64,000 nt of DNA from a virus (Duplodnaviria > Caudoviricetes): positions 12,734 through 76,733 of IMG/VR virus record IMGVR_UViG_3300005713_000004, one strand, 5' to 3'. A model generated the notes under the pieces. It was not told the DNA's origin. It searched no databases and worked only from the letters and a program-made list of their open reading frames with translations. The position numbers were made by a program, and so were the translations under genes. The stretch's first letter is position 1, and every line of letters begins with the position of its first letter. Of the stretch, positions 6,778 through 20,030 are shown one piece after another.

Positions 6778-6811
6778 GAGAGGCCCGGCCCCGACGGGGG
6801 CCGGGCCTCTC
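6778..6811. terminator. Bidirectional hairpin terminator
   Basis: GAGAGGCCCGGCCCC...GGGGCCGGGCCTCTC between convergent genes. Confidence 0.75.
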
Positions 6812-6823
6812 TGCTGTCCCGGG

Positions 6824-7165
6824 TTAGCGACCCGCGAGCCAATCGTTGAACCGGTCGCGAGCCTCTTCCTCGGACCCGGCGTAGTAGCCGCCGCCGGGGC
6901 CTTCCTCGAAGTAGCGTTCCGCCGCGCGCTCCGCCGCGATCTCCGCCCGGTGCTCGGCCTCCCATTCCTGCTGAATCGCCCAGCAGTGTCGGACGTGGGC
7001 AACGGTGGCGTGGCGGACGATCGCGTCCGGCCCGGTGACGCCGTAGCCCCGTTCGGTGTCGGAGCAGGATCCGCAGCGGACGCCGTCCGCTGTGCGCTCC
7101 GGGAGGCGGTAGTACTCGATCTCGTCGATCGGGCGGGCGGTGGCGGCCGTGGTGAGGGTCGACAT
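6824..7165 (-). CDS. Hypothetical protein (CxxC...HxxxC)
   Basis: GGAGG SD, own promoter. Confidence 0.7.
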   Translation of the reverse strand: MSTLTTAATARPIDEIEYYRLPERTADGVRCGSCSDTERGYGVTGPDAIVRHATVAHVRHCWAIQQEWEAEHRAEIAAERAAERYFEEGPGGGYYAGSEEEARDRFNDWLAGR

Positions 7166-7186
7166 CGTGTCCTCCGGTGAGGGTCT

Positions 7187-7257
7187 CTGTTGAGTTTTCA
7201 ACCGGACCCGGTGGGCCCGACACGAGAGACATTACACGGCGACCCACGACCACGCAA
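7187..7257 (-). promoter_or_regulatory. Cassette promoter with hairpin and boxA-like leader motif
   Basis: TTGCGT-17-TAATGT (7257-7229); TTGAAAACTCAACAG (7201-7187). Confidence 0.75.
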
Positions 7258-7418
7258 GCCCCCTGCGCGACCCGTTGCAGATCGAGACCCCACCGTGACC
7301 CGCAACGGTTGCGCAACCGTTGCGCCCAGCCGTGGACACGGCCAAAGCCCCCTCCCCACCTGCGAAAACACCGCGAGGGGGGAGAGGGCTCCGCGTGCAA
7401 CGGTTACAGCCGCAACGG

Positions 7419-7988
7419 TTACAGGACCAGCAATGCGACCCCCACCCACGACATCACCGACACCGGGAAGTACAGCCACGCGAGGCGGCTCGCTTCGACC
7501 TCGGACCCCGTCGAGAACACCCGCCCGATCCGCAGCCGCCCATCCCGAACCGCCGTGTAGTACCCCCGGTCGCGGCCGGGCCACGGGATCCCCGACATCG
7601 TCCGAGCGTCCCCCCACAGGTGGACGCAGCAGCCCACGAACACGCAGGCCCACCACCACACCGCCATGACCGGGCCGCCCAGCGGCGCCGGGACCAGCAG
7701 CGCCAGCAGCGCCACCGGGAGCCCGAACACCGCCGCTGCGGACCTCGTGTGCGTCCACCCCCTGTGCTCCACGAACAGGCACAGCAGCCACGACACGAGC
7801 CGCGTCGCCGGTCCGAGCGAGTGGGTCACCGTCGAGCCCGGGTGGTCGAGGTCCGGCAGGAGAGCGGAGTACCCGACGAGGATCCCGCCGAGCACGGCCG
7901 CCGGGAGCGGGACGCCCAGCCCGTGACCCGCCCCGGCGACCCACGACCCGGCGGCGAGCCCGGTCGTGAGGTGGCTCCGGGCCATCAT
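7419..7988 (-). CDS. Membrane metal-dependent hydrolase (YdjM/DUF457-like)
   Basis: MMARSH...ALLPDLDHPGS...HRGWTH...HLWGD motifs. Confidence 0.85.
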   Translation of the reverse strand: MMARSHLTTGLAAGSWVAGAGHGLGVPLPAAVLGGILVGYSALLPDLDHPGSTVTHSLGPATRLVSWLLCLFVEHRGWTHTRSAAAVFGLPVALLALLVPAPLGGPVMAVWWWACVFVGCCVHLWGDARTMSGIPWPGRDRGYYTAVRDGRLRIGRVFSTGSEVEASRLAWLYFPVSVMSWVGVALLVL

Positions 7989-8911
7989 GACGCGGACTCC
8001 GCGTCCTGCTCGACCGGAGCCGGGACGGGTCGCACAGCGGGTCGCGCGTCCCGGGCCTGCGCGAGCAGCCGGGTTGCCTTCGACCCGCCGCAACCCGCGT
8101 GCTCCCGGACCGCCTTCGCGGTCGGCGGGCGGCCGACCCGGTCCCACTCCGACCCGATCCACGCGACCGTCGCCGGGTCGTCCGGGTCGCCGACCCGGGT
8201 TGACCCGGCGGGTCGTGCCGGGTTGCGGGTCGCCGGGACCCGGGTCGGGGCCTTCCGGTCGGGACGGGTCGCCGGGTCGGCGACGGCCGGGACGGGTCGC
8301 GAGACGACCTGCTCGACCCGGGTCGTCGGGCGGGCGGCGAGCGCGGCGCCTACGGCGTCCCGGATCGCGTCCCGCTGCTCGACCCGGATCGCGTCCCGGA
8401 TGCGCTCCGGGTCGGCGGAGACCGGGATGCCGACGAGGTGGGTCACGGGCCACGTCGTGTCCACGTCCGCGCGCATCCGGGCGACGTAGTCGCGGACGCG
8501 GCCCAGCATGACGGCGACGAGTTCGAGGGTGACCGCGAACGAGATCGGGGCCCACACGGCGGCGGCGAGGCGGCCGACGCCCTCGCCGACGGACGGGGCG
8601 CCGAACGCGTCGGCGCTCGCGAGGTTCGCGGCGATGGTGCCGATGAACCCGACCCCGAACGCGAGCCACGGGACGAAGCCGATCGGCTGCTGCGCCCAGC
8701 GGCGGGAGTACATCACCACGAGCGCGGCGATCAACATCCCGTCGGTGGTGAGCGGGAGCCACGCGGCGCGGGACTCCGCCTCGCCGTAGGTCCGGAACAC
8801 CTCGTACGCGTGGTGGTAGGAAGCGACGGCGGCGGGCCCGCCGACGGACGCGAGGATCGCGGCGATACCGAGCAGCATCGCGGCGACCGCGAGAGCGGTT
8901 CGGGTGGTCAC
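7985..8911 (-). CDS. DUF2637/SpdA-like membrane protein with C-terminal HTH
   Basis: SYHH...WLPLTTDGMLIA...GTIAAN...AVWAPISF pattern; typical of actinomycete conjugative elements. Confidence 0.75.
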   Translation of the reverse strand: MTTRTALAVAAMLLGIAAILASVGGPAAVASYHHAYEVFRTYGEAESRAAWLPLTTDGMLIAALVVMYSRRWAQQPIGFVPWLAFGVGFIGTIAANLASADAFGAPSVGEGVGRLAAAVWAPISFAVTLELVAVMLGRVRDYVARMRADVDTTWPVTHLVGIPVSADPERIRDAIRVEQRDAIRDAVGAALAARPTTRVEQVVSRPVPAVADPATRPDRKAPTRVPATRNPARPAGSTRVGDPDDPATVAWIGSEWDRVGRPPTAKAVREHAGCGGSKATRLLAQARDARPAVRPVPAPVEQDAESAS

Positions 8912-9351
8912 GGGAGGATCTCCAGTCGGACGGAGCGGGTGATGTCGTGGCCGTTGTCGTCGAGCAGCGCGACCGGCTCCGCGCGAACCTCGATCAGGTC
9001 CGACGGCGGGCGGCGCGTGGTGGTGGCGGTGGCGCGCATGAGGGTCATGTGGTGGGCGACGGCGACCGCGTCGGCCGGGTCTTCGGCGATGTGGACCCCG
9101 ACGACCTGCTCGTCCGCGTAGTGGCCGACGAGCAAGATGTACGCCTGCGTGCGCGGCTGCTCCGGGTCGGTGGCGCCCAGCCGCTCCGCTTCGCGGGCGA
9201 CGGCTTCGCGGTAGGCGTGTCCGGTGTCGCGGACGATCAGGCAGGCGGCGCGGTGACGGAGCCCGGCGCCGGTGAGCCCGGCGCCGATCGGGCAGGTCAT
9301 CTCACAGTCGTCGCGGGCCTCGAAGTAGTTCGCGGGGGTGAGGGTGTCCAT
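8908..9351 (-). CDS. Hypothetical protein
   Basis: AGGAG SD; coupled to next gene. Confidence 0.65.
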   Translation of the reverse strand: MDTLTPANYFEARDDCEMTCPIGAGLTGAGLRHRAACLIVRDTGHAYREAVAREAERLGATDPEQPRTQAYILLVGHYADEQVVGVHIAEDPADAVAVAHHMTLMRATATTTRRPPSDLIEVRAEPVALLDDNGHDITRSVRLEILP

Positions 9352-9406
9352 CGGGGTTCTCCTGTAGTGGGGCCCCGGCCCCCGGGGTGGGGGCCGGGTC
9401 CGGCGG

Positions 9407-9535
9407 TCAGTTCTGCGCTCGCCACGCGGCGGCGTCGGCGCAGGTCTCGCAGTGCCCGTCGCACTGCGGGTCGCCGCAACCGGCGGGGGAGGTGTCGGGG
9501 CGGGGGATGTAGATCCGGTGGCCGCTGCTGCTCAT
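9407..9535 (-). CDS. Small Cys-rich protein (CGDPQCDGHCETC)
   Basis: Downstream of promoter, SD-like AAGGA. Confidence 0.5.
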   Translation of the reverse strand: MSSSGHRIYIPRPDTSPAGCGDPQCDGHCETCADAAAWRAQN

Positions 9536-9581
9536 CTGTCCGGTCCTTCCGTTGGGGCCGCTGTCCGGCCCGACACGACAG

Positions 9582-9645
9582 ACATTACACGCCCCCCGTG
9601 GGTCACGCAACCCCCTTGCGTGAACCCACGGCAGGCGTGTAACGT
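9582..9645. promoter_or_regulatory. Back-to-back divergent cassette promoters
   Basis: Minus TTGCGT-17-TAATGT (9610-9582); plus TTGCGT-18-TAACGT (9616-9645). Confidence 0.75.
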
Positions 9646-9652
9646 CTGCGGC

Positions 9653-9991
9653 ATGACGACACGGACAGCACAGCCCCCCGCCCCACCGAAGCCGGTCCAC
9701 CTCACCCCCGGCGAGACCCGGGGCACGTGGACGGCCGTTGACGGCCGGTTCACGATCACGACCTACCGTGCCGGGCGAGGCGCCACCGCCGACGAGCGGG
9801 AGCAACAGGCCGCCGGAGCGCTCGACATCGTGGACACGGCGCGGCGCAACATCCTCGGACACGTGGGTACCGACACCGCCCGCGTCTACGACCGCGAGGA
9901 CGCCGTGGGCGCCATCACCCGCGTCCTACGGATCGAGCACCGGGACGCGGTCCGCCTCGCCGAACTCCGCGTCGCCCGGCGGGTGATCTGA
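9653..9991 (+). CDS. Hypothetical leaderless protein
   Basis: ATG 7 nt after -10. Confidence 0.7.
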   Translation: MTTRTAQPPAPPKPVHLTPGETRGTWTAVDGRFTITTYRAGRGATADEREQQAAGALDIVDTARRNILGHVGTDTARVYDREDAVGAITRVLRIEHRDAVRLAELRVARRVI

Positions 9992-9993
9992 TC

Positions 9994-10221
9994 ATGTGCT
10001 CGAACACGAAGCGGCACTTCCGCGACGAGGGCCCTGCGCTCGCCGCGATGCACCGGATGATCCTCAACCCGCAGAACCGGCGCCACCACAACCCGTGCCG
10101 GGTCATCCCCTGCGACCGGCACTGCGGGGAGTACGTGCTCACCTCGTCCCCACAGCGGGCGACGAGCGGGCGAGGCAGGACGAACGGCGGGAAGGGCTCC
10201 CGCCGGAGCGGACGGAGGTAA
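9994..10221 (+). CDS. Small putative Zn-binding phage protein
   Basis: CRVIPCDRHCGEYVLTS resembles phage CxxCxxxHLTS family. Confidence 0.55.
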   Translation: MCSNTKRHFRDEGPALAAMHRMILNPQNRRHHNPCRVIPCDRHCGEYVLTSSPQRATSGRGRTNGGKGSRRSGRR

Positions 10222-10226
10222 CGACG

Positions 10227-10586
10227 ATGGGCCACACGATCGGGCAGGCCGGGACCCGCGAAGAGCAGCGGGTGTTCATGGTCGCCACGCTGGACGAGGA
10301 CGCGACAGTCCTCGTCTCCGGATACCACCGCAAGCAGGAGTGGCGCCCGACCCGGGTGGCCGCGACGTTCGAGCGGGACCGCCCGAACACCACCGGGCCG
10401 TGGAACTCGTGGACGATGATGTCCGCGCACGTGAGCGGGTTCAACCTCCGGAAGGACGGGTCCGCAGGCGCGGACCACCGCGAGCGGCTGTACAGCAACG
10501 ACCGGGGCGGCCCCGACGTGGCCGCCGCGCTCGCCGACATGGCCCGGCTCGTCGAGGCCCACGGCGTCGACCAGCCCGAAGCCTGA
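10227..10586 (+). CDS. Hypothetical protein
   Basis: GGAGG SD. Confidence 0.7.
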   Translation: MGHTIGQAGTREEQRVFMVATLDEDATVLVSGYHRKQEWRPTRVAATFERDRPNTTGPWNSWTMMSAHVSGFNLRKDGSAGADHRERLYSNDRGGPDVAAALADMARLVEAHGVDQPEA

Positions 10587-10597
10587 CCGGAACGACC

Positions 10598-10631
10598 AGC
10601 AGCCCCCGGACCACATGGTCCGGGGGCTGCT
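10598..10631. terminator. Bidirectional hairpin terminator
   Basis: AGCAGCCCCCGGACCA...TGGTCCGGGGGCTGCT. Confidence 0.75.
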
Positions 10632-10636
10632 TCGTG

Positions 10637-10747
10637 TCGCGGCGGTGGGACTCGAACCCACGACCTCCGGGGCCTCCCCCGGCGCGCTGCTCGTGATCCG
10701 CTGGTCGTACGCCCGGCGGGCGAGGCTTCCGGCTGCGCCACACCGCG
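10637..10747 (-). ncRNA. tRNA-Pro-like RNA lacking an anticodon loop, with 47-nt D-loop
   Basis: Acceptor CGCGGTG/CGCCGCG + A73, D stem GCGC/GCGC, T arm GTGGG-TTCGAGT-CCCAC, variable loop AGGTC; anticodon arm is CCGGGG-GAGG-CCCCGG. Confidence 0.7.
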
Positions 10748-10775
10748 AGCCCCCACAGTAGCCGTGGACACGGCC

Positions 10776-11633
10776 TCACGACCAGACGAGCCCCACGACG
10801 TTGACGTAGCCGCCTCCGGTCCCGAGGACGAGCGGGGCGGTCATCGTGATGGTGCAGCCGGTCGCGGTGAGCGTCCCCGACTTGAGGACCATCGTGATCG
10901 AGCCCAGCGTCCCGCCTCCGGGCTCGCGCAGGATCGCGATCGAGGTCGGGACGGCGCCTGCGCTGGTCCACGTGACCGCGACGTCGGTCGGGGTATTCAG
11001 CGCGAGCGCAGGCACCGCGACGCGGCCGTGGACGAGCCGGGGCCGGAGCGCTTCGAGCGCGGTCACGCGGGTGGTGAGCGCGGCGACCGCAGCGGCTGCG
11101 GCGTCGGCGGTGGTCTTCGCTCCGGCCGCTGTCGCGCCCGCTGCGGTCGCGGTCGACTGGGCGGCGGCTGCGTCCGTCTTCGCGGTGTTCGCCGTGGACT
11201 GGGCGGCGGAGGCTGCGGTACCGGCTGCGGTGGCGGTGGTCTGTGCTGCGGCGGCTGCGGTCGAGGCTGCGGCGGCTGCGGCGGTCGCCTCCGTGGCGCT
11301 CGTCTTCGCGCTGTCCCCGGTGGCCTTCGCGGTGTCGGCGGCCGTCTTCGCCGCAGCAGCGGCGGTCGAAGCGAGCGCGGCGGCTGCGCTCGCGGACTGG
11401 GCGGCGGTCGAGGCGGCTCCGGCTGCGGTGGTCGCGTCGGCGGCTGCGGTCCCGGCGGCGGTGGCCATGGTCCGGGCGTTGCTGGCCATGGTCCGGGCGC
11501 TGTCCCCGGTGGCCTGCGCGCTGTCGGCGGATGCCTGTGCCGCAGCAGCAGCGGCGGCGGCTTGAGCAGCGGCGTAGGACCGACGCTCAAGCTCGATCAG
11601 ACGTTCGGTGACCGGGCCGGTGATCTGGCGCAC
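10776..11633 (-). CDS. Ala-rich coiled-coil fibre-like protein with C-terminal beta domain
   Basis: GGGAGG SD + GTG; long A/T/S heptad-like run, then RVTALE and beta-rich C-terminus. Confidence 0.7.
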   Translation of the reverse strand: MRQITGPVTERLIELERRSYAAAQAAAAAAAAQASADSAQATGDSARTMASNARTMATAAGTAAADATTAAGAASTAAQSASAAAALASTAAAAAKTAADTAKATGDSAKTSATEATAAAAAASTAAAAAQTTATAAGTAASAAQSTANTAKTDAAAAQSTATAAGATAAGAKTTADAAAAAVAALTTRVTALEALRPRLVHGRVAVPALALNTPTDVAVTWTSAGAVPTSIAILREPGGGTLGSITMVLKSGTLTATGCTITMTAPLVLGTGGGYVNVVGLVWS

Positions 11634-11730
11634 GCTCGACCTCCCGTCGGCGCGGGCGGACACGAGGACAGGGTAGGGCGGGGCGCCGGGCGACGCACCT
11701 TCCCCACCGTGGATTACCTTGCCAAACCTT

Positions 11731-11822
11731 CCGTGGATTGTCAACCCGCCTGGTCCGATCGGGTGACAATCCACGGAATCCACGCAGGGGGCTTGCGCGT
11801 GTCCACGCCTTGCGGGTAATGT
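11731..11822. promoter_or_regulatory. Divergent promoter/operator region
   Basis: Minus TTGACA (11744-11739) within CCGTGGATTGTCA/TGACAATCCACGG inverted repeat; plus TTGCGC-18-TAATGT (11793-11822). Confidence 0.7.
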
Positions 11823-11862
11823 CTCTCATGTCAGGCAAGCCCCCCCCGCCACGGAGGACACG

Positions 11863-12555
11863 ATGAGCGACAACGACACCACCACCGGCCCCACCTACCG
11901 ACTCACCCGCGAGGACTGGTTGCACCGGGCGACCGACATCCTCCGCCCGATGTTCGAGCAGGTGGGCGCCACCCTCCCCGACGTGATCCACCTGTCCGTC
12001 GGCTTCGGCGGCTCCGGCGCCGGGAAGTACGAGCGGTTCGTAGAGGGCGTCACGTGGTTCCGCGCGGCCGACGCCTGCGGCCACAACCACGTGTTCATCT
12101 CCCCGACGCTGGGCGACACCGCCCACGTCCTCGAAGTCCTCGTTCACGAACTGTGCCACGTTGCCACGGACAACGTGGGTGGTCACGGGGGCGAGTTCGC
12201 GGAGTTCATGACCCGGCTAGGCATGACCGGGCGGATGACCACCGCGCAGGCGGACGTGCCGTTCATGGCGGAGCTGATGGTCATCGCGGCGGAGTTGGGC
12301 GACTACCCCCACGGGGCGCTCGACATGGCGCCCGTCAAGGTCGAGGCGCCGGTGGGCCCGGACGGGATCGAGATCCCGGTCGGGCGGCCGACCAGCGGCC
12401 CGAAGGCGCAGACAAACCGGTGGATCTCGTTCTCCTGCCCCGTCCACGACGCGCCGGTCCGGATGTCGCGGACGAAGGCGGCTCTCGGCGCCCCGTACTG
12501 CGGCCACCGGGACGAGCAGGGCGTCCCGTGCCTCACGGAGATGGTGGCGCGGTAG
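11863..12555 (+). CDS. SprT-like zinc metalloprotease
   Basis: VLVHELCH (HExxH) then GHGGEF; C-terminal CxxH/C ribbon; GGAGG SD. Confidence 0.85.
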   Translation: MSDNDTTTGPTYRLTREDWLHRATDILRPMFEQVGATLPDVIHLSVGFGGSGAGKYERFVEGVTWFRAADACGHNHVFISPTLGDTAHVLEVLVHELCHVATDNVGGHGGEFAEFMTRLGMTGRMTTAQADVPFMAELMVIAAELGDYPHGALDMAPVKVEAPVGPDGIEIPVGRPTSGPKAQTNRWISFSCPVHDAPVRMSRTKAALGAPYCGHRDEQGVPCLTEMVAR

Positions 12556-12651
12556 GCGGGTGGACACGGCCCCCCGGCTGCGGCCGGGGGGCCGTTCTGC
12601 GTCCTCGACCTGCCGCAGGTCGTGTCCACGGTCACGAGTCGGTCACGGGGC

Positions 12652-12680
12652 TTGCACTTCCCACGGTCGCCGGGTAATGT
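12652..12680 (+). promoter_or_regulatory. Cassette promoter
   Basis: TTGCAC-17-TAATGT. Confidence 0.7.
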
Positions 12681-12727
12681 CTCTCATGTCGGGGGGAACA
12701 GCCCCCCACCACCACCCGGAGGTCCCG

Positions 12728-13117
12728 ATGATCGCCACCACCGCCACCACCACCCCCTACGCCCCGGCGAAGTTCGCCCGGGTCGTTGCCGCCCTGGTCC
12801 GGCAGTTCGCCGGGCTGGTCGTCGGCGCCGAGTGGGTCTCCGGGCTCGCGCTGGGCTGGGATGTCGAGATGTGGGCGCCGAAGGCGGACCACCTCTCGCT
12901 CGCGCTGTGCCCGGTCGAGGAGGACGGGTCCACCGGCGCAGCCGTGCGCCGGGCGACGATCGTCCCGGGCCAGTACCGGGCGTGGGAGGTCGTGGCCGAC
13001 GGGATCGTGCTGGGCGAGTTCCACGGCCTCGACGCGGCGGTGAGCCACGCGCTCGACCACGTCGCGGTGCCGTGCTGGGCGCCGGTCCAGCATGACCACG
13101 ACGCGTTCGCCGTGTAG
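12728..13117 (+). CDS. Hypothetical protein
   Basis: GGAGG SD, own promoter and hairpin. Confidence 0.7.
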   Translation: MIATTATTTPYAPAKFARVVAALVRQFAGLVVGAEWVSGLALGWDVEMWAPKADHLSLALCPVEEDGSTGAAVRRATIVPGQYRAWEVVADGIVLGEFHGLDAAVSHALDHVAVPCWAPVQHDHDAFAV

Positions 13118-13146
13118 GCGAGCCGGGCCCCGGCTCCGGCCGGGGC

Positions 13147-13252
13147 CCGTGGGTTGTCACCCGATCGGACCACCTCCCCGGCTTGACTTCCCCCGGGTCG
13201 CCGTGTAATGTCTCTCTTGTCGGACACGGAGCCCGGCGGGACAACTCAACAG
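13147..13252 (+). promoter_or_regulatory. Cassette promoter with upstream inverted half-site and boxA-like leader
   Basis: TTGACT-17-TAATGT (13183-13211); GGGACAACTCAACAG (13238-13252). Confidence 0.8.
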
Positions 13253-13264
13253 AGGGAGTCAGGG

Positions 13265-13510
13265 ATGAGCGAGTTCACCCCCACCGGCCGCATGATCGTC
13301 TACGTTGAGTGGGACGTCCGGGCCGGGAAGCACGGGGCCTCCACCGGCGACGTGTGGGCGCGAGCGGACCTGATCGGCGGCGGGAAGGCGGAGTTCGCCG
13401 GGACCGACCAGCAGGTCACGGACTGGGCGCTCAACGTCATGACCGCAGCCGGAGCGCGCGGGATCGCCTGCGAGATCCGGGACGGTCGGGGGCTGGTGAC
13501 GCAGGACTGA
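13265..13510 (+). CDS. Hypothetical protein
   Basis: SD, own promoter. Confidence 0.7.
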   Translation: MSEFTPTGRMIVYVEWDVRAGKHGASTGDVWARADLIGGGKAEFAGTDQQVTDWALNVMTAAGARGIACEIRDGRGLVTQD

Positions 13511-13664
13511 CCGGGCGCGAGAGCCCCACTGCTTCGGCGGTGGGGCTCTCGCCGTGTCCGGGCCCGTGCGACCGGCTGAGCGGGCCGGTGCCGGGCGCAG
13601 CGGGCGCGGCTGGGCTCCGGGCCCACCGAAGCGGTCGCGGGCCGCAGGAGACCTCTCACGGCCT

Positions 13665-13771
13665 CCGTGGAATGTCACCCGATCGGACCATGGTCCGGGC
13701 TGGACAACCCACGGTCGACCGGGTAATGTCCCTCGTGTCGGGCCGGTCGGCCCGGCGGGACAACTCAAGAG
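13665..13771 (+). promoter_or_regulatory. Cassette promoter with upstream inverted half-site and boxA-like leader
   Basis: TGGACA-17-TAATGT (13701-13729); GGGACAACTCAAGAG. Confidence 0.75.
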
Positions 13772-13784
13772 AGATGGTGCAGAG

Positions 13785-13937
13785 ATGATCGAGGTCACCG
13801 TGGTTACCCTGCTCCGCCTGATCGCCGCTCGCGCGGACGGTCGGATCGCGGGCCCCACCGTTGACGCGAAGATCGCCGAACTCACCGCCCGGTTCACCGC
13901 CTCCGGCGAGATCGTCGCGGTCCTGAGCGCCGAGTGA
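13785..13937 (+). CDS. Hypothetical protein
   Basis: First ORF after promoter. Confidence 0.55.
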   Translation: MIEVTVVTLLRLIAARADGRIAGPTVDAKIAELTARFTASGEIVAVLSAE

Positions 13938-14002
13938 TCGAGCAGCCGCCCCGCTCCGGCGGGGCGGCTGCCCCTCTCCACCACCTCGACCAGCAGGAGG
14001 AC

Positions 14003-14431
14003 ATGATGGGCACGTTGATCGACAACCCGGACATCGGCTCGTGGCGGCAGCGGCTCGCAGGTCTGCTCGCCGGGTACGACCTCGCCGACCCGCGCGAGCG
14101 GCAGGCGGCCCACGAGGTCGTCGCGGAGGCCGCTGCCCAGACGTCCATGCGGGGTCTTCGGGACCTCACGTTCCGGTTGGGGTACCGGGGCTACTCGCCC
14201 CGGAGCCGGGGCGAGGCGGTCGCGAAGATCGTCGCCCGGTGGGCGGACCTGCCTGCCGAGCAGCGCCGGGCGCCCGACGCCACGGACGCGGATGTCGTGG
14301 ACACGCTGCGGCAGGTGGCGGACCTCGCAGCCGAAGCGGCGGCCGACTTCGAGGTCACCGCCGAGCAGGTGACCCGGCTCGCGCGGCTGGTCCGGTACCT
14401 CGTGGACGTCACGCCCGGGGCGCAGCGGTGA
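14003..14431 (+). CDS. Hypothetical protein
   Basis: AGGAGG SD (alternative GTG 13934). Confidence 0.7.
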   Translation: MMGTLIDNPDIGSWRQRLAGLLAGYDLADPRERQAAHEVVAEAAAQTSMRGLRDLTFRLGYRGYSPRSRGEAVAKIVARWADLPAEQRRAPDATDADVVDTLRQVADLAAEAAADFEVTAEQVTRLARLVRYLVDVTPGAQR

Positions 14432-14643
14432 GGGCGCAGCGGTGGGCGGACCGGCTGCTCGACGTCGCGGCCGACGAGGTGGCGGGGTCGCCGGTGTTTA
14501 GGCAGGTCCGCCGCGACATCGTGGCCGCGTACGCCCCGCAGGTCCGGGCGTCGGTGCTGCGGGAGGTGGGGACCCTGCTCCCCCGGACGAGCCTTCACCG
14601 GGCCGGGTGGGCGGGCGAGATCGCCCGGGACCTCGCCCGGTAG
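14428..14643 (+). CDS. Hypothetical protein
   Basis: GTGA coupling, followed by hairpin. Confidence 0.55.
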   Translation: MRAQRWADRLLDVAADEVAGSPVFRQVRRDIVAAYAPQVRASVLREVGTLLPRTSLHRAGWAGEIARDLAR

Positions 14644-14785
14644 CGGCTGGTCGAGCAGCGGAGCCCCCGGCGTGTCGCGCGCCGGGGGCTCCGGCGTGTC
14701 GCGGGGCGGCGAGGCTGTGACCTGCGAGAACCCGGGGAGGCGACACGCCCGGGTGCACAACACGCCGCGTCCACGCCCCCGGGTG

Positions 14786-14813
14786 TTGACATCCCACGGC
14801 GACCGTGTAGAGT
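14786..14813 (+). promoter_or_regulatory. Cassette promoter (leaderless)
   Basis: TTGACA-TCCCACGGCGACCGTG-TAGAGT. Confidence 0.85.
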
Positions 14814-14820
14814 CTCCCTC

Positions 14821-15225
14821 ATGAACAACGCAGCCGCCGCCCCCGCCCCCCTCGCCCCCACCGCCCCGGCGACCGTCGCCGGTGCTTCGACCCAGGAGGT
14901 CACCATGTCCGCTCTCACCGCCGCCCGCGCCGCCGTCGAGGCGATCGAGGCTGAGGTCCACGACCTCATGGCCTGCGACGACACCGCGTTTGACGCGGAC
15001 CTCGCCGACCGCCACGAGCGGGCCCTTGCCGCCCTCCGGGCTGCGGAAGCGCAGGTCACGGCGCCGCAGGCGGTCCGGTGGGTCGTCGAGGGTCGGCGGC
15101 TCGCGACCCGGCGGGTGCTCCGCTGGGCGGGCGAGGCGACCAGCCGGGCCGACGCGGTGGCGCAGGCACAGGCGAAGTGGGGCGCGGGCGCGCTGGTCGA
15201 CGCGGCGGGCGAGGTGATCCGCTAG
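14821..15225 (+). CDS. Hypothetical leaderless protein
   Basis: ATG 7 nt after -10. Confidence 0.75.
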   Translation: MNNAAAAPAPLAPTAPATVAGASTQEVTMSALTAARAAVEAIEAEVHDLMACDDTAFDADLADRHERALAALRAAEAQVTAPQAVRWVVEGRRLATRRVLRWAGEATSRADAVAQAQAKWGAGALVDAAGEVIR

Positions 15226-15332
15226 GGGCCCGGGGGTCCGGCTTCGGCCGGGCCCCACCCCCTCCGACCTGCGACGATGCGGCGAGCCCGGCGGCTGCGA
15301 CGCACGTCACCCGATCGGCCCACCCCCGGGGG

Positions 15333-15360
15333 TTGACTTCCCACGGCCACCGTGTAGAGT
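15333..15360 (+). promoter_or_regulatory. Cassette promoter (leaderless)
   Basis: TTGACT-TCCCACGGCCACCGTG-TAGAGT. Confidence 0.85.
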
Positions 15361-15367
15361 CATTCCC

Positions 15368-15733
15368 ATGACGAACACCACCGCCCCCGCCGCCCTCCCC
15401 GCCCGCCCGGCTCGCGCCCCCCGGGGCTTCGTTGCCGCCGACCGCTGCGGGACCTGCGACGGGCGCGGCGCCCACCTCGTCCCGGCCGTGGACGGGGACG
15501 GTGAGTTCGTCCTCGACGGGGAGGGCTTCGAGGTCGAGGTCCCCACCACCTGCGAGGACTGCGAGGGCCGGGGCTGGGCGCGGGACGAGCGGACCCCGGA
15601 GCAGGTCCGCGCGGAGGCGGAGGCGGCGAAGGCGGAGCGCATCGCCGATCACCTCGCCTTCGTGGCGGAGTTCGGGTACACCCCGGGTCGGGCCCCGTCC
15701 TGCGGGGGGAACTACTGCCGCTGCGAGCGGTGA
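15368..15733 (+). CDS. Leaderless protein with DnaJ-type CxxCxGxG zinc finger
   Basis: CGTCDGRG and CEDCEGRG. Confidence 0.75.
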   Translation: MTNTTAPAALPARPARAPRGFVAADRCGTCDGRGAHLVPAVDGDGEFVLDGEGFEVEVPTTCEDCEGRGWARDERTPEQVRAEAEAAKAERIADHLAFVAEFGYTPGRAPSCGGNYCRCER

Positions 15734-15811
15734 GGTGGGGCGGTGACCAGGGGAAACCCTGGTCACCGACACGCCCGGCCGGGCGACACGCCGGGGATCC
15801 CCCTCCGGGGG

Positions 15812-15839
15812 TTGACATCCCACGGCGACCGTGTAGAGT
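15812..15839 (+). promoter_or_regulatory. Cassette promoter (leaderless)
   Basis: TTGACA-TCCCACGGCGACCGTG-TAGAGT, identical to 14786-14813. Confidence 0.85.
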
Positions 15840-15846
15840 TACACCC

Positions 15847-16110
15847 ATGACGAACACCGGAACCCCCGCCCCCGCCGCCCCCGCCTACACCGACGCGGAG
15901 GCCCTCGACGAGTCGGTCCTGATGATGCTCCGCAAGGCCCGCCGGGTCGGCGTGCTGGACCAGGTCCGGGCCCTGCTCGGCGACGACGTGTGGGACACCC
16001 TCTGCGCCGCCGAGACCCGGGCCGACGCCCTCCGCTTCGCCGACGAGCGGCGCGGCATCCCCCTCTGCTCCCGCCCCTTCCCCGTTGCCGACGAGGACGA
16101 GGACGCCTGA
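15847..16110 (+). CDS. Hypothetical leaderless protein
   Basis: ATG 7 nt after -10; hairpin after stop. Confidence 0.75.
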   Translation: MTNTGTPAPAAPAYTDAEALDESVLMMLRKARRVGVLDQVRALLGDDVWDTLCAAETRADALRFADERRGIPLCSRPFPVADEDEDA

Positions 16111-16418
16111 CCGGGCGGGGGCTGCGGCCCCCACCTGCGGCCCCCGGTGCTCCGGCTCCGGGGGCCGCTTCGTGTCCACGGCCCGGAGGCGCTGAGCGAC
16201 CCTGTGCGGCCCGCTGCGGGGCGGGCGGGCGGGAGGGACCGGCGAGGGCTGAGAGGCCCGCAGCGGGCCTCTCACGGCTCGCGTGGGGTGTCTCCGCTGG
16301 GCGGCCGGAGCGGGCGGCAGGCGGGCCGCGCGTACGCGGTGACGGGCCCCCGGCGCGTGCCCGCTCCGGCCGCTGGCCAGGGTACCCGCCGGGCGGGATC
16401 GAGGTCGGTTACCTGTAG

Positions 16419-16513
16419 ACGATGCCACATCCGGACATCCCACGTCAACCGTGGGATGTCACCCGATCGTACGAACTTCCGGGCTTGACTTCCCACGGTC
16501 GGCCGGGTAATGT
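16419..16513. promoter_or_regulatory. Divergent promoter pair sharing operator inverted repeat
   Basis: Minus TTGACG-18-CATCGT (16448-16419); plus TTGACT-17-TAATGT (16485-16513). Confidence 0.7.
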
Positions 16514-16560
16514 CTTTCATGTCAGGGGGGAACGGCCCCCCGGGAAGATCGGAGAACATC

Positions 16561-16788
16561 ATGAACGCCGCCACCGCCGCCGCCCTCACCGCCACCCTCA
16601 CCGCCGCCGGGGCGACCGACATCCACGAGGTCTCCACCACCCGCCGCACGATCGTCGCCTTCACCGCCGCCGGTGACTCGATCTTCCCGATCATGGACGC
16701 CCTGCTCGTCGCCTCCGCCGCCGACCGGCACGCCGCGATCTTCACCCACGCCGACACCTCGACCGGCCGCTACCACGTGCAGGGCTGA
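16561..16788 (+). CDS. Hypothetical protein
   Basis: GGAG SD; hairpin after stop. Confidence 0.7.
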   Translation: MNAATAAALTATLTAAGATDIHEVSTTRRTIVAFTAAGDSIFPIMDALLVASAADRHAAIFTHADTSTGRYHVQG

Positions 16789-16846
16789 GCCCTCCGGGCT
16801 GGCCCCCGCCCTCCGGGGCGGGGGCTTCCTGCTGGTCCCGGCAGGG

Positions 16847-16975
16847 TTGACAACACCACGCCGATCGTGTATCGTCTACAGGTAACCGTGCTCGACCCCG
16901 CGACCCGGCTCCGTGGGACGTCACCCGATCGGACCATGGTTCGGGGTTGACTTCCCACGGCGTGCCGGGTAATGT
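16847..16975 (+). promoter_or_regulatory. Tandem promoters
   Basis: TTGACA-17-TATCGT (16847-16875); TTGACT-17-TAATGT (16947-16975). Confidence 0.8.
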
Positions 16976-17013
16976 CTCTCTTGTCAGCAGGGAACGAACA
17001 CCAGGAGGACACG

Positions 17014-17250
17014 ATGTCGAACACCACCGCCGCCCAGGTCACCACCACCGGCCGCATCGCCGCCGCCATCCGGGCCGCCGGGTTCACCATCTCCTACCTG
17101 CCGCTTCCCTCCGGCCGGACCGTGGTCCGGGTTGACGTCCCCACCCTCGACCCCCGGGTCTTCGACCTGATGACCGCCGTGGCGGACTTCGGGGTCACGG
17201 TCTTCCCGGCGGGCGACGGCGAGCGCTGGACGAACGTCGCGGCCATCTGA
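17014..17250 (+). CDS. Hypothetical protein
   Basis: AGGAGG SD; hairpin after stop. Confidence 0.75.
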   Translation: MSNTTAAQVTTTGRIAAAIRAAGFTISYLPLPSGRTVVRVDVPTLDPRVFDLMTAVADFGVTVFPAGDGERWTNVAAI

Positions 17251-17307
17251 GCCTGCGGGCTCCGGCCCCCGCCTCCGGGCGGGGGCTTTCCCGTGCGCCG
17301 AGTGGGC

Positions 17308-17488
17308 TTGACTTCCCAACGGCGACCGTGTATCGTCTACAGGTAACCGGGCTCGATTCCGGCAGGTCGTCGCCGGGACCTCCGTGGGATGTCACCCGAT
17401 CGGCCAACCCTTCGGGGTTGACAACCCACGGCGACCCACGTAATGTCTACATCACCGGGAGGGACACCCCGCCCGGACAACTCAACAG
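17308..17488 (+). promoter_or_regulatory. Tandem promoters, second with boxA-like leader
   Basis: TTGACT-17-TATCGT (17308-17336); TTGACA-17-TAATGT (17418-17446); CGGACAACTCAACAG. Confidence 0.8.
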
Positions 17489-17500
17489 AGGGAGGTTCCG

Positions 17501-17656
17501 ATGGGATCCGGAAACGGTGATCAGGAGGACATCACGGAGGACGGGACGTGGTCCTGTCCCATGTGCGGCGAGAGCGGCACATGCGTGACGGGTGACGAGG
17601 GCGCAGCCCTCACGGCCCACGTTGCGTTCGGGTGTCCGGCGGCGCAGGCCGACTGA
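17501..17656 (+). CDS. Small putative zinc-finger protein
   Basis: GGGAGG SD; CPMC...HVAFGC; absent from ORF track. Confidence 0.6.
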   Translation: MGSGNGDQEDITEDGTWSCPMCGESGTCVTGDEGAALTAHVAFGCPAAQAD

Positions 17657-17733
17657 TCACCACCCGCCCCCGGCTTCGGCCGGGGGCGGGACCGGGTCCC
17701 GGATCCACCCTCGCCACGAAGGGAGGGCCGGTC

Positions 17734-18306
17734 ATGGACTGGCGGCACGGCGCCCACTGCCGGGGCGCGAGCGAGCCGGAGGTGTGGTTCCCGGTCGACG
17801 AGGACCAGGGCCACGACGCGCCGGGTGTGGTTCGGGCGCGCCTCGCCTGCGCGCCGTGCCCGGTCCGGGCGGAGTGCCTGTCATGGGCCTTCGAGTCCGG
17901 GCAGACGGCCGGTGTGTGGGGCGGGATGTCGACGCCGGAGCGCCGGGCCCTGCGCGCCCCGGAGCGGCTCCGTGTGGCCGCTGCTGCGGCGTCGGACCGG
18001 CGAGCCCGGGAGGACGCACAGCGGGACGCACAGGAGGACGCAGGCGCCAGCACGGAGGGCGGGGCGGGGGACACCCTGCCTCGCCCTCGTCGGCGGCGGG
18101 GTGGCCAGCCGCCGGGGACGACGCGGGCCCACCGGTCCGGGTCGGTCGGCCGCTGCGCCACCTGCTCGAAGCGCCTCGACCTGCGCGCGGACGGGCGAGT
18201 CGTCCGGCACGACCGGGTGTTGGACGGGAAGCGTGGGCACTGCCCCGGCTCCGGCGAGGTGTCGGCGGTCGAGGCGCTTCCCGGGTCGGGGCGTGTCCAC
18301 GGGTAG
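17734..18306 (+). CDS. whiB: WhiB-family Fe-S transcription factor with C-terminal Cys/His extension
   Basis: C...WFP...CAPCPVRAEC...GVWGG. Confidence 0.9.
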   Translation: MDWRHGAHCRGASEPEVWFPVDEDQGHDAPGVVRARLACAPCPVRAECLSWAFESGQTAGVWGGMSTPERRALRAPERLRVAAAAASDRRAREDAQRDAQEDAGASTEGGAGDTLPRPRRRRGGQPPGTTRAHRSGSVGRCATCSKRLDLRADGRVVRHDRVLDGKRGHCPGSGEVSAVEALPGSGRVHG

Positions 18307-18333
18307 CCGTGACATACTCCGCATGGCGGGGGG

Positions 18334-18362
18334 TTGCGTAACCCCCGGCGAGCGTGTAGTGT
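18334..18362 (+). promoter_or_regulatory. Promoter
   Basis: TTGCGT-17-TAGTGT. Confidence 0.65.
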
Positions 18363-18418
18363 CATCTATGGTGGGAGAGGGTCTCTCGCCAGAACGAGAC
18401 GAGAGGGAGGGGACAGCA

Positions 18419-18796
18419 GTGGCAAAGCGCAAGGAACCGATGGCGCCGATCAGCTACAAGACGGCGGGCGCGGAGTGGGGCAACGCGGCTGCGGCTGCGG
18501 CCCTGTGCGTGGGCAGCGACGGCAAGGCGATCTCCGCCGACACGTTCCAGTGGTACGTGCGAACCGCCGACCCGAACGGCGACAACCCCCCGCCGAAGGC
18601 GGAGCGGGTGGACCCGCACACCCGGCAGAGCATGTACCGGCTCAAGCGGGTACGGGAGTGGCACGCGAAGCGGCCCGGCCGTGGGAATTGGGGCGGCATC
18701 GGCGCCCGCGCCCGCCTGCCGAAGGACCAGCAGGGCGAGCCCGTGGACACGCCCGCCCCGGAGGCGGGCGCGGAGCCCGCCTCGCAGGACGCGTGA
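18419..18796 (+). CDS. Actinophage HTH DNA-binding protein
   Basis: TFQWYV...PPP...VREWHAKRPGRG motif; GGAGG SD. Confidence 0.7.
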   Translation: MAKRKEPMAPISYKTAGAEWGNAAAAAALCVGSDGKAISADTFQWYVRTADPNGDNPPPKAERVDPHTRQSMYRLKRVREWHAKRPGRGNWGGIGARARLPKDQQGEPVDTPAPEAGAEPASQDA

Positions 18797-19047
18797 CCAG
18801 CATGCACGGGGCCCTCTCCTCGCCGGTGATCCTGCCGGTCGTGGGGAGGGCTCCGCTGTATCGGGATGCGGTCGCGTGGCTCGAAGCGCTGCGGGACGTC
18901 GCCGACGCGAACGGCCACGGGCAGGCGGCCCGGTACGCGGTCGCCGTGCTCGACCTCGTCGCCGCTGCGCACGACGCGGCCGACGCCGGGTACGGTCCGC
19001 CGGACCTGCTCGCCGCGCTGCTGCCCTTCCCCCGGTCCGCGCTGTGA
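18793..19047 (+). CDS. Hypothetical protein
   Basis: GTGA coupling. Confidence 0.55.
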   Translation: MTSMHGALSSPVILPVVGRAPLYRDAVAWLEALRDVADANGHGQAARYAVAVLDLVAAAHDAADAGYGPPDLLAALLPFPRSAL

Positions 19048-19457
19048 CCCGCTCGTGGTCGCACGCGGCGAGGACCATCGACGCGGTCCCGCTGTACCGG
19101 CTGCGGATCGAGGCGGCGCAGGTGGACCCGCTGCGTCACCTCGCCCTGCCGGGGCAGCGGGCCGGGTACCTCGAAGGGGTCGCCGCCGTGCACCTCGAAC
19201 CGGACGACTTCGGGTCGCCTGCCCATCGGGTCGAGTGGCGGGAGCAGCGGGGCGGCTCGTGGTTCACCATCGGGTACGCGGCCGACGAGCCGGGCGGCGA
19301 GCAGGATCCGGCGGCGGACCCGCGCGTCGAGGACGTGATGCGGCGCCTCGACCGGGGGCGGGTCGGGGTGCTGACCGGGGACCCGGTGTCGCTGCTCGCG
19401 GCGGAGGTCCGGCGTCTCCGTGGATTGTCACCCGATCGGCCCACCTCCGGGGTTTGA
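19044..19457 (+). CDS. Hypothetical protein
   Basis: GTGA coupling. Confidence 0.55.
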   Translation: MTRSWSHAARTIDAVPLYRLRIEAAQVDPLRHLALPGQRAGYLEGVAAVHLEPDDFGSPAHRVEWREQRGGSWFTIGYAADEPGGEQDPAADPRVEDVMRRLDRGRVGVLTGDPVSLLAAEVRRLRGLSPDRPTSGV

Positions 19458-19531
19458 CAACCCACGGCTAGCCGGGTAATGTCTCTCTCATCGGGCGGGG
19501 CGCTCCCCCTCCCGGGTTGATAACTCAACAG
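19418..19531 (+). promoter_or_regulatory. Cassette promoter with upstream inverted half-site and boxA-like leader
   Basis: TTGACA-17-TAATGT (19454-19482); TTGATAACTCAACAG (19517-19531). Confidence 0.8.
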
Positions 19532-19544
19532 AGATGAGGCGCAG

Positions 19545-19952
19545 ATGAGCAACACCGCGACGTACCGGATCCTCGGCACCACCGACGAGGTCACCCGCTG
19601 CGAGCACTGCGGCCGGGACGACCTCCGGTCCACCGTCGTCCTCGCCGCCCTTGACGACGAGGGCAACGACGACGGCGGCCGGGTGTACCTCGGCTCCACC
19701 TGCGGCGCGAAGGCCGCAGGCTGGACCAGCCCCCGGAAGTTCCGCGAGGACGCAGCCGCCGCCGACCGCGGGAAGGGCGCGGCGGTCCGCAAGGCCCGCG
19801 ACGCTCGGTTCGCCGAGTGGGTCCAGCGGACCTACGGCCTCACGGTCACCGGCCCCCGCGATCTCTACGGGATCCGGAACCGGGAGGTCACCGGAGCGGA
19901 GCCCACCGACGTTCTCGCCCGGTACCGGGCAGAGACCGGAGAGACCGCCTGA
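19545..19952 (+). CDS. Putative Zn-binding phage protein
   Basis: CEHCGR...TV...YLGSTCG. Confidence 0.75.
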   Translation: MSNTATYRILGTTDEVTRCEHCGRDDLRSTVVLAALDDEGNDDGGRVYLGSTCGAKAAGWTSPRKFREDAAAADRGKGAAVRKARDARFAEWVQRTYGLTVTGPRDLYGIRNREVTGAEPTDVLARYRAETGETA

Positions 19953-19954
19953 CA

Positions 19955-19992
19955 GCAAGCAACCCCCCGGCTCCGGCCGGGGGGTTGCTTGC
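19955..19992 (+). terminator. Hairpin terminator
   Basis: GCAAGCAACCCCCCGG...CCGGGGGGTTGCTTGC. Confidence 0.75.
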
Positions 19993-20030
19993 GTTACGGC
20001 GTGTCCACGGGGTACCCCTGCCGGGAGGTG

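What the first reader, a model, noticed from the sequence alone, without database searches (positions are those of the whole stretch)
7187..19531. rRNA boxA-like antitermination motif behind a hairpin in five phage leaders
Seen: leaders carry a GC hairpin followed by TTGAAAACTCAACAG (7201-7187, minus), GGGACAACTCAACAG (13238), GGGACAACTCAAGAG (13757), CGGACAACTCAACAG (17474) and TTGATAACTCAACAG (19517). Known, from memory: the actinobacterial rrn boxA core is TTGAGAACTCAA(C/T)AG, preceded by a boxB hairpin. Inference: the phage may use the host NusB/NusE rRNA antitermination machinery without an N protein, to read through its many cassette terminators.
Basis: partly seen in the sequence, partly recalled or inferred. 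Interest (0 to 1): 0.8.

Follow-up and report, generated by a model that had tools for sequence, protein, structure and literature searches.

The report
Partial rRNA-leader mimic in phage leaders
Seven short mRNA leaders of a high-GC actinomycete phage carry a copy of the back half of the signal that the host's ribosomal RNA operons use to load elongation factors. The front half, which defines a true boxA, is missing, so this is probably a NusA-type docking site placed right before the ribosome-binding site.

Summary
AACTCAA(C/G)AG occurs 5 times in the window (0.48 expected) and twice more just upstream in the same 76.7-kb virus record. All 7 copies are sense-oriented in predicted 5' leaders, and there are no degenerate copies.

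The likeness to the actinobacterial rrn leader is real. Streptomyces-type rrn leaders carry the same word 110-200 nt before 16S, and three Streptomyces genomes have it only 6-7 times each.

The phage copies keep only the 3' part (GA-N-AACTCAACAG). All 7 lack the 5' half that NusB/NusE recognise, and 4 of 7 also lack the invariant TT. They therefore fail the boxA test. The part they keep is, by recall, the segment M. tuberculosis NusA binds.

The hairpin is not specific to the box, because box-less sister leaders have it too. Four box leaders head a short ORF, then a strong GC hairpin, then promoter-less genes, which fits read-through. One box-less leader has the same layout.

Full-length rrn-type boxes occur in 108 cultured Streptomyces phages and many IMG/VR contigs. 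This scan had already noted that on other DNA, and I found no paper on it.

Verdict: a new variant of a known kind, with the mechanism unproven. Interest is 0.55.

The parts
7185..7201 (-). Box copy, type I (TTGA-A-AACTCAACAG-AG). It ends 19 nt before the ATG at 7165-7163.
13240..13254 (+). Box copy, type II (GA-C-AACTCAACAG-AG). It ends 10 nt before the ATG at 13265.
13759..13773 (+). Box copy, type II, with one change (C to G). It ends 11 nt before the ATG at 13785.
17476..17490 (+). Box copy, type II. It ends 10 nt before the ATG at 17501.
19517..19533 (+). Box copy, type I (TTGA-T-AACTCAACAG-AG). It ends 11 nt before the ATG at 19545.
7229..7257 (-). Predicted promoter (-35 to -10, TAATGT type) feeding the box leader at 7185-7201.
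13183..13211 (+). Predicted promoter (TTGACT, 17 nt, TAATGT) feeding box 13240-13254.
13701..13729 (+). Predicted promoter feeding box 13759-13773.
17418..17446 (+). Predicted promoter (TTGACA, 17 nt, TAATGT) feeding box 17476-17490. A second, TATCGT-type promoter lies about 100 nt upstream (17308-17336).
19454..19482 (+). Predicted promoter (TTGACA, 17 nt, TAATGT) feeding box 19517-19533.
13785..13937 (+). First ORF (50 aa, no family) behind box 13759-13773.
13942..13971 (+). Strong GC hairpin (13-bp stem, no U tract) directly after the stop of the 50-aa ORF. An SD and ATG at 14003 follow 31 nt later, with no room for a promoter.
14003..14643 (+). Promoter-less genes downstream of that hairpin (14003-14431, then to 14643). 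Reaching them from the box promoter requires passing the hairpin.
17501..17656 (+). First ORF (51 aa, four Cys) behind box 17476-17490.
17663..17690 (+). Strong GC hairpin (12-bp stem) directly after the 51-aa ORF.
17734..18306 (+). Promoter-less gene behind the hairpin. It encodes a WhiB-domain protein (PF02467, E 1e-17).
19545..19952 (+). First ORF (135 aa) behind box 19517-19533.
19955..19992 (+). Very strong GC hairpin (17-bp stem) directly after the 135-aa ORF.
20031..21686 (+). Run of co-oriented genes behind the hairpin with no recognisable promoter of their own. The first, 20031-20210, is a DUF7218 protein.
13265..13510 (+). First ORF (81 aa) behind box 13240-13254. An imperfect hairpin follows at about 13518-13550, and then the next box promoter.
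6824..7165 (-). First ORF (113 aa) behind box 7185-7201. It ends at a 15-bp-stem hairpin (6778-6811) shared with the convergent TraB/FtsK-like gene.

Best explanation
The box is an RNA signal copied from the host's rRNA-operon leader, but only its 3' half. Shown: it is transcribed-strand specific. It is as conserved as the -10 element while the neighbouring hairpin varies. It equals the most conserved word of the Streptomyces-type rrn leader, a word that host genomes use nowhere else. Inferred: as the leader emerges from RNA polymerase, the box is bound by host NusA through its KH domains, the interaction described for the M. tuberculosis rrn nut-like site. NusB/NusE are not needed, because their 8-nt core is absent. 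Tethering NusA to the leader keeps it from helping hairpin-dependent pausing and termination and protects against Rho. Polymerases started at box promoters would then run past the U-less GC hairpin that follows the first short ORF into promoter-less genes, among them a WhiB-like regulator. Polymerases from box-less sister promoters would make one gene and stop.
For: Seven copies against 0.48 expected, with none degenerate. All are sense-oriented in leaders, and box columns are invariant while the hairpin tops differ. The same 13-mer class occurs 6-7 times per 7-8 Mb Streptomyces genome, always as the rrn version, and lies upstream of 16S in the six loci checked. The variable position N in GA-N-AAC (C, A or T in the phage) is also variable in host rrn leaders (G, A or C). 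Unrelated actinophages carry the box behind strong promoters, either full-length in long leaders (Zemlya and 107 other Streptomyces phages; IMG/VR) or 3'-half only next to the SD. That spread points to a conserved host factor rather than a phage-specific protein. Layout: box promoters at 13701, 17418, 19454 and G7233 feed a short ORF, then a strong hairpin, then promoter-less genes. Four box-less leaders feed one ORF, then a hairpin, then a new promoter. M. tuberculosis NusA binds specifically to the rrn segment just 3' of boxA via KH1/KH2 (PMC2724277, citing Arnvig 2004 and Beuth 2005). Precedent for N-independent phage use of an rrn-type box: T7 early leader (PMC3709561).
Against: There are no binding or transcript data. 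The host is unknown. The exact NusA-bound oligonucleotide is recalled from memory, because the two primary papers are not held. One box-less leader (P9588, minus strand) also feeds a short ORF, a hairpin and promoter-less genes. Three box units (13183, 7229, G8290) are not obviously followed by promoter-less genes. The hairpins lack U tracts and may not terminate at all. By recall, rrn-type antitermination in E. coli acts mainly on Rho-dependent terminators, not intrinsic ones. The long late operon has no box. The box abuts the SD in all 12 short-type cases, which a purely transcriptional signal does not require. In one other phage the box cassette ends in a canonical U-tract terminator followed by its own promoter.
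Confidence: 0.35

Rival explanations
1. Start-associated translation element. The box acts on the mRNA at the ribosome-binding site, as an unstructured A/C-rich standby or S1-binding enhancer, comparable in position to the start-associated sequences of Cluster K mycobacteriophages. It boosts or times translation of the first ORF and has no effect on transcription.
For: The box ends 10-13 nt before the start codon in 6 of 7 copies, while its distance from the promoter varies. In five unrelated phages the same word runs straight into the SD, with the ATG 10-16 nt later. Three of the seven box leaders have weak SDs, whereas box-less sisters mostly have GGAGG (read from the sequences). SAS/ESAS are a published precedent for conserved asymmetric repeats at the starts of non-structural phage genes (PMC3203893). 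By recall, E. coli S1 binds boxA RNA specifically (Mogridge and Greenblatt 1998).
Against: The identical word sits in rrn leaders and in long phage leaders about 100 nt or more from any start codon. Host mRNAs do not use it. It has no special complementarity to 16S rRNA: duplex energy -12.3 against -12.9 +/- 1.9 for shuffled boxes. Compact leaders leave no other untranslated place for a signal.
Confidence: 0.2
2. Nus-factor-mediated repression. As in the E. coli suhB 5' UTR, where boxA lies 6 nt from the SD, host elongation factors bound at the box loop the leader to RNA polymerase and keep the ribosome off. Translation of the first ORF falls and early termination rises, which couples these phage genes to the host's growth state.
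For: The box sits next to the SD. The suhB mechanism is published (PMC5725501). A strong hairpin follows directly behind each first ORF.
Against: The suhB effect needs a functional NusB/NusE core and the complete Nus complex, and the phage boxes lack that core. Repressing seven strong promoters' products this way has no evident benefit.
Confidence: 0.15
3. DNA-level site. The box is an asymmetric operator or 'stoperator' bound by a phage or host DNA-binding protein that blocks or modulates elongation from these promoters, as in Cluster A mycobacteriophages.
For: There are seven copies of a 13-15-bp asymmetric word, all in one orientation relative to transcription and lying between promoter and gene start. 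In one K-like prophage the sub-word recurs around the promoter in direct and inverted copies (L307/L337). The phage encodes a WhiB-like protein and a DNA-binding-protein hit (PHROG 597).
Against: The word is shared with unrelated phages and with rrn leaders across a phylum, whereas repressor sites are usually phage-specific. There are no inverted copies in this genome. A different, better operator candidate, a 14-mer upstream of the -35, is repeated at these promoters.
Confidence: 0.1
4. Decoy. Abundant short transcripts from seven strong promoters soak up the host factor that normally binds the rrn leader. This depresses host rRNA synthesis or frees the factor for phage use. The effect acts in trans, not on the carrying transcript.
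For: The phage carries as many copies in 33 kb as the host has rrn operons. Only the factor-binding half is kept.
Against: This is pure inference. Other phages carry a single copy. The fixed place before the SD is not explained.
Confidence: 0.05
5. No function of its own. The box is a passenger of a duplicated promoter-leader cassette, or an RNase processing site of no regulatory consequence.
For: The cassettes are clearly paralogous. The four plus-strand box cassettes also share the exact upstream 14-mer.
Against: The box is invariant while the adjacent hairpin tops have diverged, and no decayed copies exist. It occurs in different cassette subfamilies, since the minus-strand copies lack the 14-mer. 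It recurs in unrelated phages.
Confidence: 0.1

Closest known systems
Actinobacterial rrn leader nut-like site (boxB hairpin, boxA, overlapping 'boxC'; studied in M. tuberculosis with NusA, and with NusB/NusE)
   Same: The 3' segment GA-N-AACT-x-A-A-Y-AG is shared, and the Streptomyces version is identical to the phage box at every position except the one that also varies among hosts. In both it lies on the transcribed strand behind a strong promoter and after a hairpin.
   Different: The phage lacks the 5' half (G-x-T-C-C), and 4 of 7 copies also lack the TT. The phage box sits 10-13 nt before a start codon rather than over 100 nt before a structural RNA. There are seven copies in 33 kb.
Full-length rrn-type box in early leaders of Streptomyces phages (e.g. 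Zemlya, Likavirus) and many uncultured actinophages; not annotated, and no paper found
   Same: It uses the same host word behind a TTGACA/TAGAGT-type promoter and a hairpin.
   Different: Those phages keep the complete boxA core. They have one copy per genome, in a long leader about 100 nt from the first gene.
Phage T7 boxA downstream of early promoters A1-A3, and E. coli rrn boxA
   Same: A phage uses the host rRNA antitermination signal without an N protein (PMC3709561).
   Different: T7 has a canonical NusB/NusE boxA in one leader. Here the canonical core is missing and the signal is iterated.
Lambda nutL/nutR (boxA, boxB, N protein)
   Same: Both are an RNA signal in a phage leader that combines a hairpin with a Nus-factor word.
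   Different: The order here is hairpin then box, as in rrn. No Arg-rich N-like protein follows the boxes. The hairpin is not box-specific.
E. coli suhB 5' UTR boxA
   Same: The box lies a few nucleotides from the SD (PMC5725501).
   Different: The suhB box is a canonical boxA and represses. The direction of the effect here is unknown.
Start-associated sequences (SAS/ESAS) of Cluster K mycobacteriophages; stoperators of Cluster A
   Same: These are iterated asymmetric 13-bp words, in one orientation, at the starts of non-structural genes (PMC3203893).
   Different: The sequence differs. SAS contains the SD itself and has no host counterpart. Stoperators are repressor sites. The present word is a host rrn word.

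Membership tests
rrn-type boxA (NusB-NusE binding site) | An 8-nt core read base by base by NusB, with U8 held by NusB and NusE. In actinobacteria this is the G-x-T-C-C-T-T-G stretch. | tested here: not met
   Definition from PMC3177189. Host consensus. The phage copies have C/G-rich hairpin bases at positions 1-5 in all 7, and G-G in place of T-T in 4 of 7.
rrn-type boxA (NusB-NusE binding site) | Binding of NusB-NusE and Nus-dependent antitermination. | not testable with these tools
   This needs EMSA or anisotropy measurements and reporter assays.
Actinobacterial rrn nut-like site, 3' (NusA KH-binding) segment | Sequence GA-N-AACT-x-A-A-Y-AG immediately 3' of the boxA core. | tested here: met
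   All 7 copies match, 6 of them exactly in the Streptomyces-type form and one with C to G.
Actinobacterial rrn nut-like site, 3' (NusA KH-binding) segment | Single-stranded presentation on nascent RNA downstream of a promoter. | tested here: inconclusive
   The copies are sense-oriented behind predicted promoters. Predicted unpaired probability of the box is 0.51-0.68. Type I copies can form a weak 4-5-bp mini-hairpin. No TSS data exist.
Actinobacterial rrn nut-like site, 3' (NusA KH-binding) segment | Specific high-affinity binding by host NusA. | not testable with these tools
   Known only for the M. tuberculosis rrn RNA (PMC2724277). The primary papers are not held.
Lambda-type nut site | A boxB hairpin recognised by a phage N-like arginine-rich protein. 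| tested here: not met
   The hairpin tops are not conserved and occur in box-less leaders. The first ORFs are acidic or neutral, with R+K at most 0.16 in the six read in frame (the seventh, the ORF at 6824-7165, was read out of frame there). The whole genome was not searched exhaustively.
Cluster K SAS/ESAS | The 13-bp SAS consensus that contains the SD, 3-8 bp from the start codon, with or without 17-bp inverted repeats. | tested here: not met
   The sequence is different and there is no inverted-repeat pair. Only the positional logic is shared.
Cluster A stoperator | An asymmetric site bound by the phage immunity repressor, with one copy overlapping the early promoter. | tested here: inconclusive
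   The orientation bias is met. No copy overlaps a promoter. No repressor was identified and binding is untestable here.

The most novel reading that the evidence does not exclude
The seven boxes are a natural 'NusA-only' processive antitermination (or NusA-sequestering) signal. An RNA word that engages just the KH domains of actinobacterial NusA, without NusB/NusE and without any phage protein, would be enough to reprogram RNA polymerase past U-less hairpins and Rho. This would be a minimal antitermination signal not described in any bacterium. It would also dissect the actinobacterial rrn nut-like site into two separable halves.
Probability: 0.2. Interest if true: 0.8.

Novelty: new variant of a known kind. 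Interest (0 to 1): 0.55.

Why it matters
Transcription elongation control in Actinobacteria (Streptomyces, mycobacteria) is poorly understood, and no antitermination system of an actinophage has been described in the papers I could search. This phage offers a natural experiment: the same promoter cassette exists with and without the box. The box is the rrn leader word stripped of its NusB/NusE core. Simple reporter and binding assays could therefore tell what the conserved 3' half of the actinobacterial rrn signal does on its own. A short portable leader that changes read-through or translation in high-GC hosts would also be a useful part for Streptomyces engineering.

Tried and rejected
- Rfam at gathering threshold found nothing in the window, and there are no tRNAs.
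- No 16S gene lies in the record, so the host's own leader could not be read.
- I found no close relatives of this phage. There was no DNA match in INPHARED or PLSDB. TerL is at most 38% identical to Streptomyces phage Kromp. Protein-seeded locus searches with TerL and the TraB-like protein found nothing in genome contigs, and TerL found nothing in viral contigs. Host genus and conservation of the boxes in sister phages therefore remain unknown.
- A promoter-plus-box pattern scan of IMG/VR returned only low-GC chance hits.
- 16S complementarity of the box is no better than shuffled boxes, so the base-pairing enhancer idea was dropped.
- The box is read in different frames in different leaders (checked by eye on two leaders), so a conserved leader peptide is rejected.
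- Hairpin covariation: the consensus fold gives only an invariant 5-bp base with no compensatory changes. Leader folds are only marginally better than shuffles, with z -1.2 to -1.8.
- The canonical terminator scan found no U-tract terminators in 6-22 kb.
- Arnvig 2004 and Beuth 2005 are not held, and a literal search for the RNA oligo in papers found nothing relevant.
The T-variant was instead seen in the unbiased rrn sample (L396).
- My first family searches of the ORF at 6824-7165 used a start that was one base off. The Pfam search was repeated in frame and again found no family.
- Two unpublished genomes (G009, G026) were left out of the analysis.

Full report
**What is there**

The window is bases 12734-76733 of a 76,733-base IMG/VR virus record. 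The record is 73% GC, and CheckV estimates it to be complete. It encodes a terminase, replication proteins, a TraB/FtsK-like pump and many small ORFs without family.

Dinucleotide-preserving shuffles give a mean of 0.48 and a maximum of 3. Two more exact copies lie just upstream of the window in the same record. Relaxing the 14-mer to three mismatches adds no copy, so the motif is either intact or absent.

All seven copies lie on the transcribed strand. Each sits between a sigma-70-like promoter (TTGACA-like -35, 17 nt, extended TAATGT or TAGAGT -10) and a start codon. The box is 30-45 nt from the -10. It ends 10-13 nt before the ATG, or 19 nt in one case.

An alignment of the seven promoter-leader units shows three conserved blocks: the -35, the extended -10 with the first transcribed bases, and the box. 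The tops of the intervening hairpins differ.

The common core is GA-N-AACTCAA(C/G)AG-AG. Three copies are preceded by TT (type I) and four by GG or CG (type II).

**The hairpin**

Each box leader folds into a GC hairpin near its 5' end. At least six further promoters of the same family carry no box. At least four of those with leaders have such a hairpin, and some share the same base. Three further promoters are leaderless.

The consensus fold shows an invariant 5-bp base and no compensatory change. The hairpin therefore belongs to the promoter cassette. It is not a boxB-like partner of the box.

**Comparison with the host signal**

The host is unknown, so I tested the recalled rrn element directly.

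- The 15-mer occurs in at least 120 genome contigs, mostly of Actinomycetota genera: Streptomyces, Kitasatospora, Micromonospora, Nocardioides, Amycolatopsis, Rhodococcus and others.
- In all six loci checked it lies 110-190 nt upstream of a 16S gene.
- In three complete Streptomyces genomes the 13-mer class occurs only 6-7 times, always in the rrn form.
- An unbiased sample of 23 rrn leaders across the phylum gives the consensus G-x-(T/A)-C-C, then TTGA, then N, then AACT, then x-(A/C)-A-(C/T)-AG-(C/T)-G. TTGA is invariant in all but two weak matches, and N is G, A or C.

The phage box thus equals the Streptomyces-type version at every position except N, which also varies among hosts.

The 5' half is absent from all seven phage copies, and four of them also lack the TT. 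NusB-NusE read boxA nucleotides 1-8, and U8 is the base held at the NusB-NusE interface (PMC3177189). In actinobacteria that core is the G-x-T-C-C-T-T-G stretch. The phage copies therefore fail the defining test of a boxA.

What they keep is the stretch just 3' of it. Prasch et al. (PMC2724277) report that in M. tuberculosis rrn this neighbouring 'boxC' region is a specific NusA site bound by the two KH domains. They also report that E. coli NusA prefers boxA plus its 3' spacer. My recollection that the crystallised oligonucleotide begins at position N of this very word could not be checked, because the two primary papers are not held.

**Other phages**

The exact host 15-mer occurs in about 40 distinct high-GC IMG/VR contigs, never next to a 16S gene. 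Most of these copies have the 5' core consensus.

A Streptomyces rrn leader segment also finds 108 cultured Streptomyces phages. In Zemlya the element lies at the right genome end, in unannotated DNA: TTGACA, 17 nt, TAGAGT, a hairpin, the full box, and about 100 nt later the first gene.

This scan had already noted the same thing on other DNA (e1-5873017), and I confirm it here. I found no paper describing it.

A second, 'short' form resembles the present one: the 3' half only (one copy has the full 15-mer), running straight into the SD, with the ATG 10-16 nt later. It occurs as a single copy in five unrelated high-GC phages or proviruses. The present phage is unusual in having seven copies.

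**Layout**

Nearly every small gene in this region ends in a strong GC hairpin without a U tract.

Behind four box leaders the hairpin follows a short first ORF of 50, 51, 135 and 51 aa. It is itself followed within 30-40 nt by the SD of further co-oriented genes that have no promoter of their own. One of these genes encodes a WhiB-domain protein.

Four box-less leaders (-10 elements at 11816, 12674, 16507 and 16969) each feed one ORF, a hairpin and then a new promoter.

This pattern is what a read-through signal would predict, but it is not clean:
- The box-less promoter at 9588 (minus strand) also feeds a 42-aa ORF, a hairpin and promoter-less genes.
- Three box units do not obviously lead into promoter-less genes.
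- The 24-kb late operon has no box.
- In one other phage the box cassette ends in a canonical terminator followed by its own promoter.

**Reading**

The most likely explanation is a host-factor docking site on the nascent RNA, borrowed from the rrn leader, that works through NusA and not NusB/NusE. I put about 0.5 on host elongation-factor binding of some kind. Within that, I put 0.35 on the specific outcome of termination- and pause-resistant transcription into downstream genes.

The closeness to the SD keeps two translation-linked rivals alive. One is an enhancer or standby site like the start-associated sequences of Cluster K phages (PMC3203893). The other is repression as at E. coli suhB, where boxA lies 6 nt from the SD (PMC5725501).

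A DNA operator is less likely, because the word is shared with unrelated phages and with rrn leaders across a phylum. Complementarity to 16S rRNA is no better than for shuffled boxes.

**Novelty**

Phage use of rrn-type boxes is known for lambda and T7. The actinophage case appears unreported, but this scan found it before. The new points here are the truncation to the non-NusB/E half, the sevenfold iteration, and the existence of box-less sister cassettes that serve as built-in controls.

Noticed in passing
window 11755-11768 (-), 13155-13168, 13673-13686, 15305-15318, 16457-16470, 16919-16932, 17390-17403, 19426-19439: A 14-mer (TGTCACCCGATCGG, usually preceded by CCGTGG-x-x) is repeated about 25-40 nt upstream of the -35 of many cassette promoters. 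The four exact plus-strand copies are exactly the four plus-strand box promoters. It is a likely operator for a phage regulator.
   Followed up: partly
window 858-888; G000:C1:8927-8964, 9437-9472, 11420-11455, 12673-12705: These are perfect 12-15-bp-stem palindromes whose loop holds the -35 hexamer (TTGACA) of a minus-strand promoter. At least two of these promoters drive leaderless genes, with the ATG 6 nt after the -10. The palindromes could act as terminator and promoter at once, or as a dimeric operator.
   Followed up: no
window 16847-16875 with 16943-16980, and 17308-17336 with 17418-17446: Tandem promoters occur about 100 nt apart (a TATCGT-type, then a TAATGT-type) within a duplicated 110-nt unit. 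The 14-mer operator candidate lies between them.
   Followed up: no
window 17734-18306: A WhiB-domain protein (PF02467, E 1e-17) with a roughly 115-aa C-terminal extension is encoded behind a hairpin with no promoter of its own.
   Followed up: partly
window 4344-6644 (+) and 7985-8911 (-): A TraB/FtsK-SpoIIIE-like 766-aa protein (PHROG 31069) and a DUF2637 protein, both typical of Streptomyces conjugative plasmids, lie inside a tailed-phage genome. Other notes of this scan cover them.
   Followed up: no
after many hairpins, e.g. window 13551-13560, 19999-20012, 12600-12610: The word CGTGTCC(A/G) recurs just 3' of the cassette hairpins and inside promoter spacers. It is probably the genome-wide pseudo-palindrome that another first-reader note of this scan flagged.
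   Followed up: no
L307 and L337 (IMG/VR proviruses of isolate genomes), about 110 nt upstream of the box: A Cluster-K-like provirus has the type I box directly before the published SAS word and start codon. The sub-word of the box is repeated in direct and inverted copies around the promoter. This could link the box to the ESAS elements of Cluster K phages, whose consensus I could not read because it is given only in figures.
   Followed up: partly
L388 1940-2060 (minus orientation as analysed): In another provirus a second, paralogous promoter-hairpin cassette follows the box cassette and carries a decayed version of the box. So the box can be lost from sister cassettes.
   Followed up: no
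window 43273-43639 and 11145-11573: There are in-frame tandem repeats of 63 nt (minus-strand structural region) and 21 nt (Ala/Gly-rich gene).
   Followed up: no
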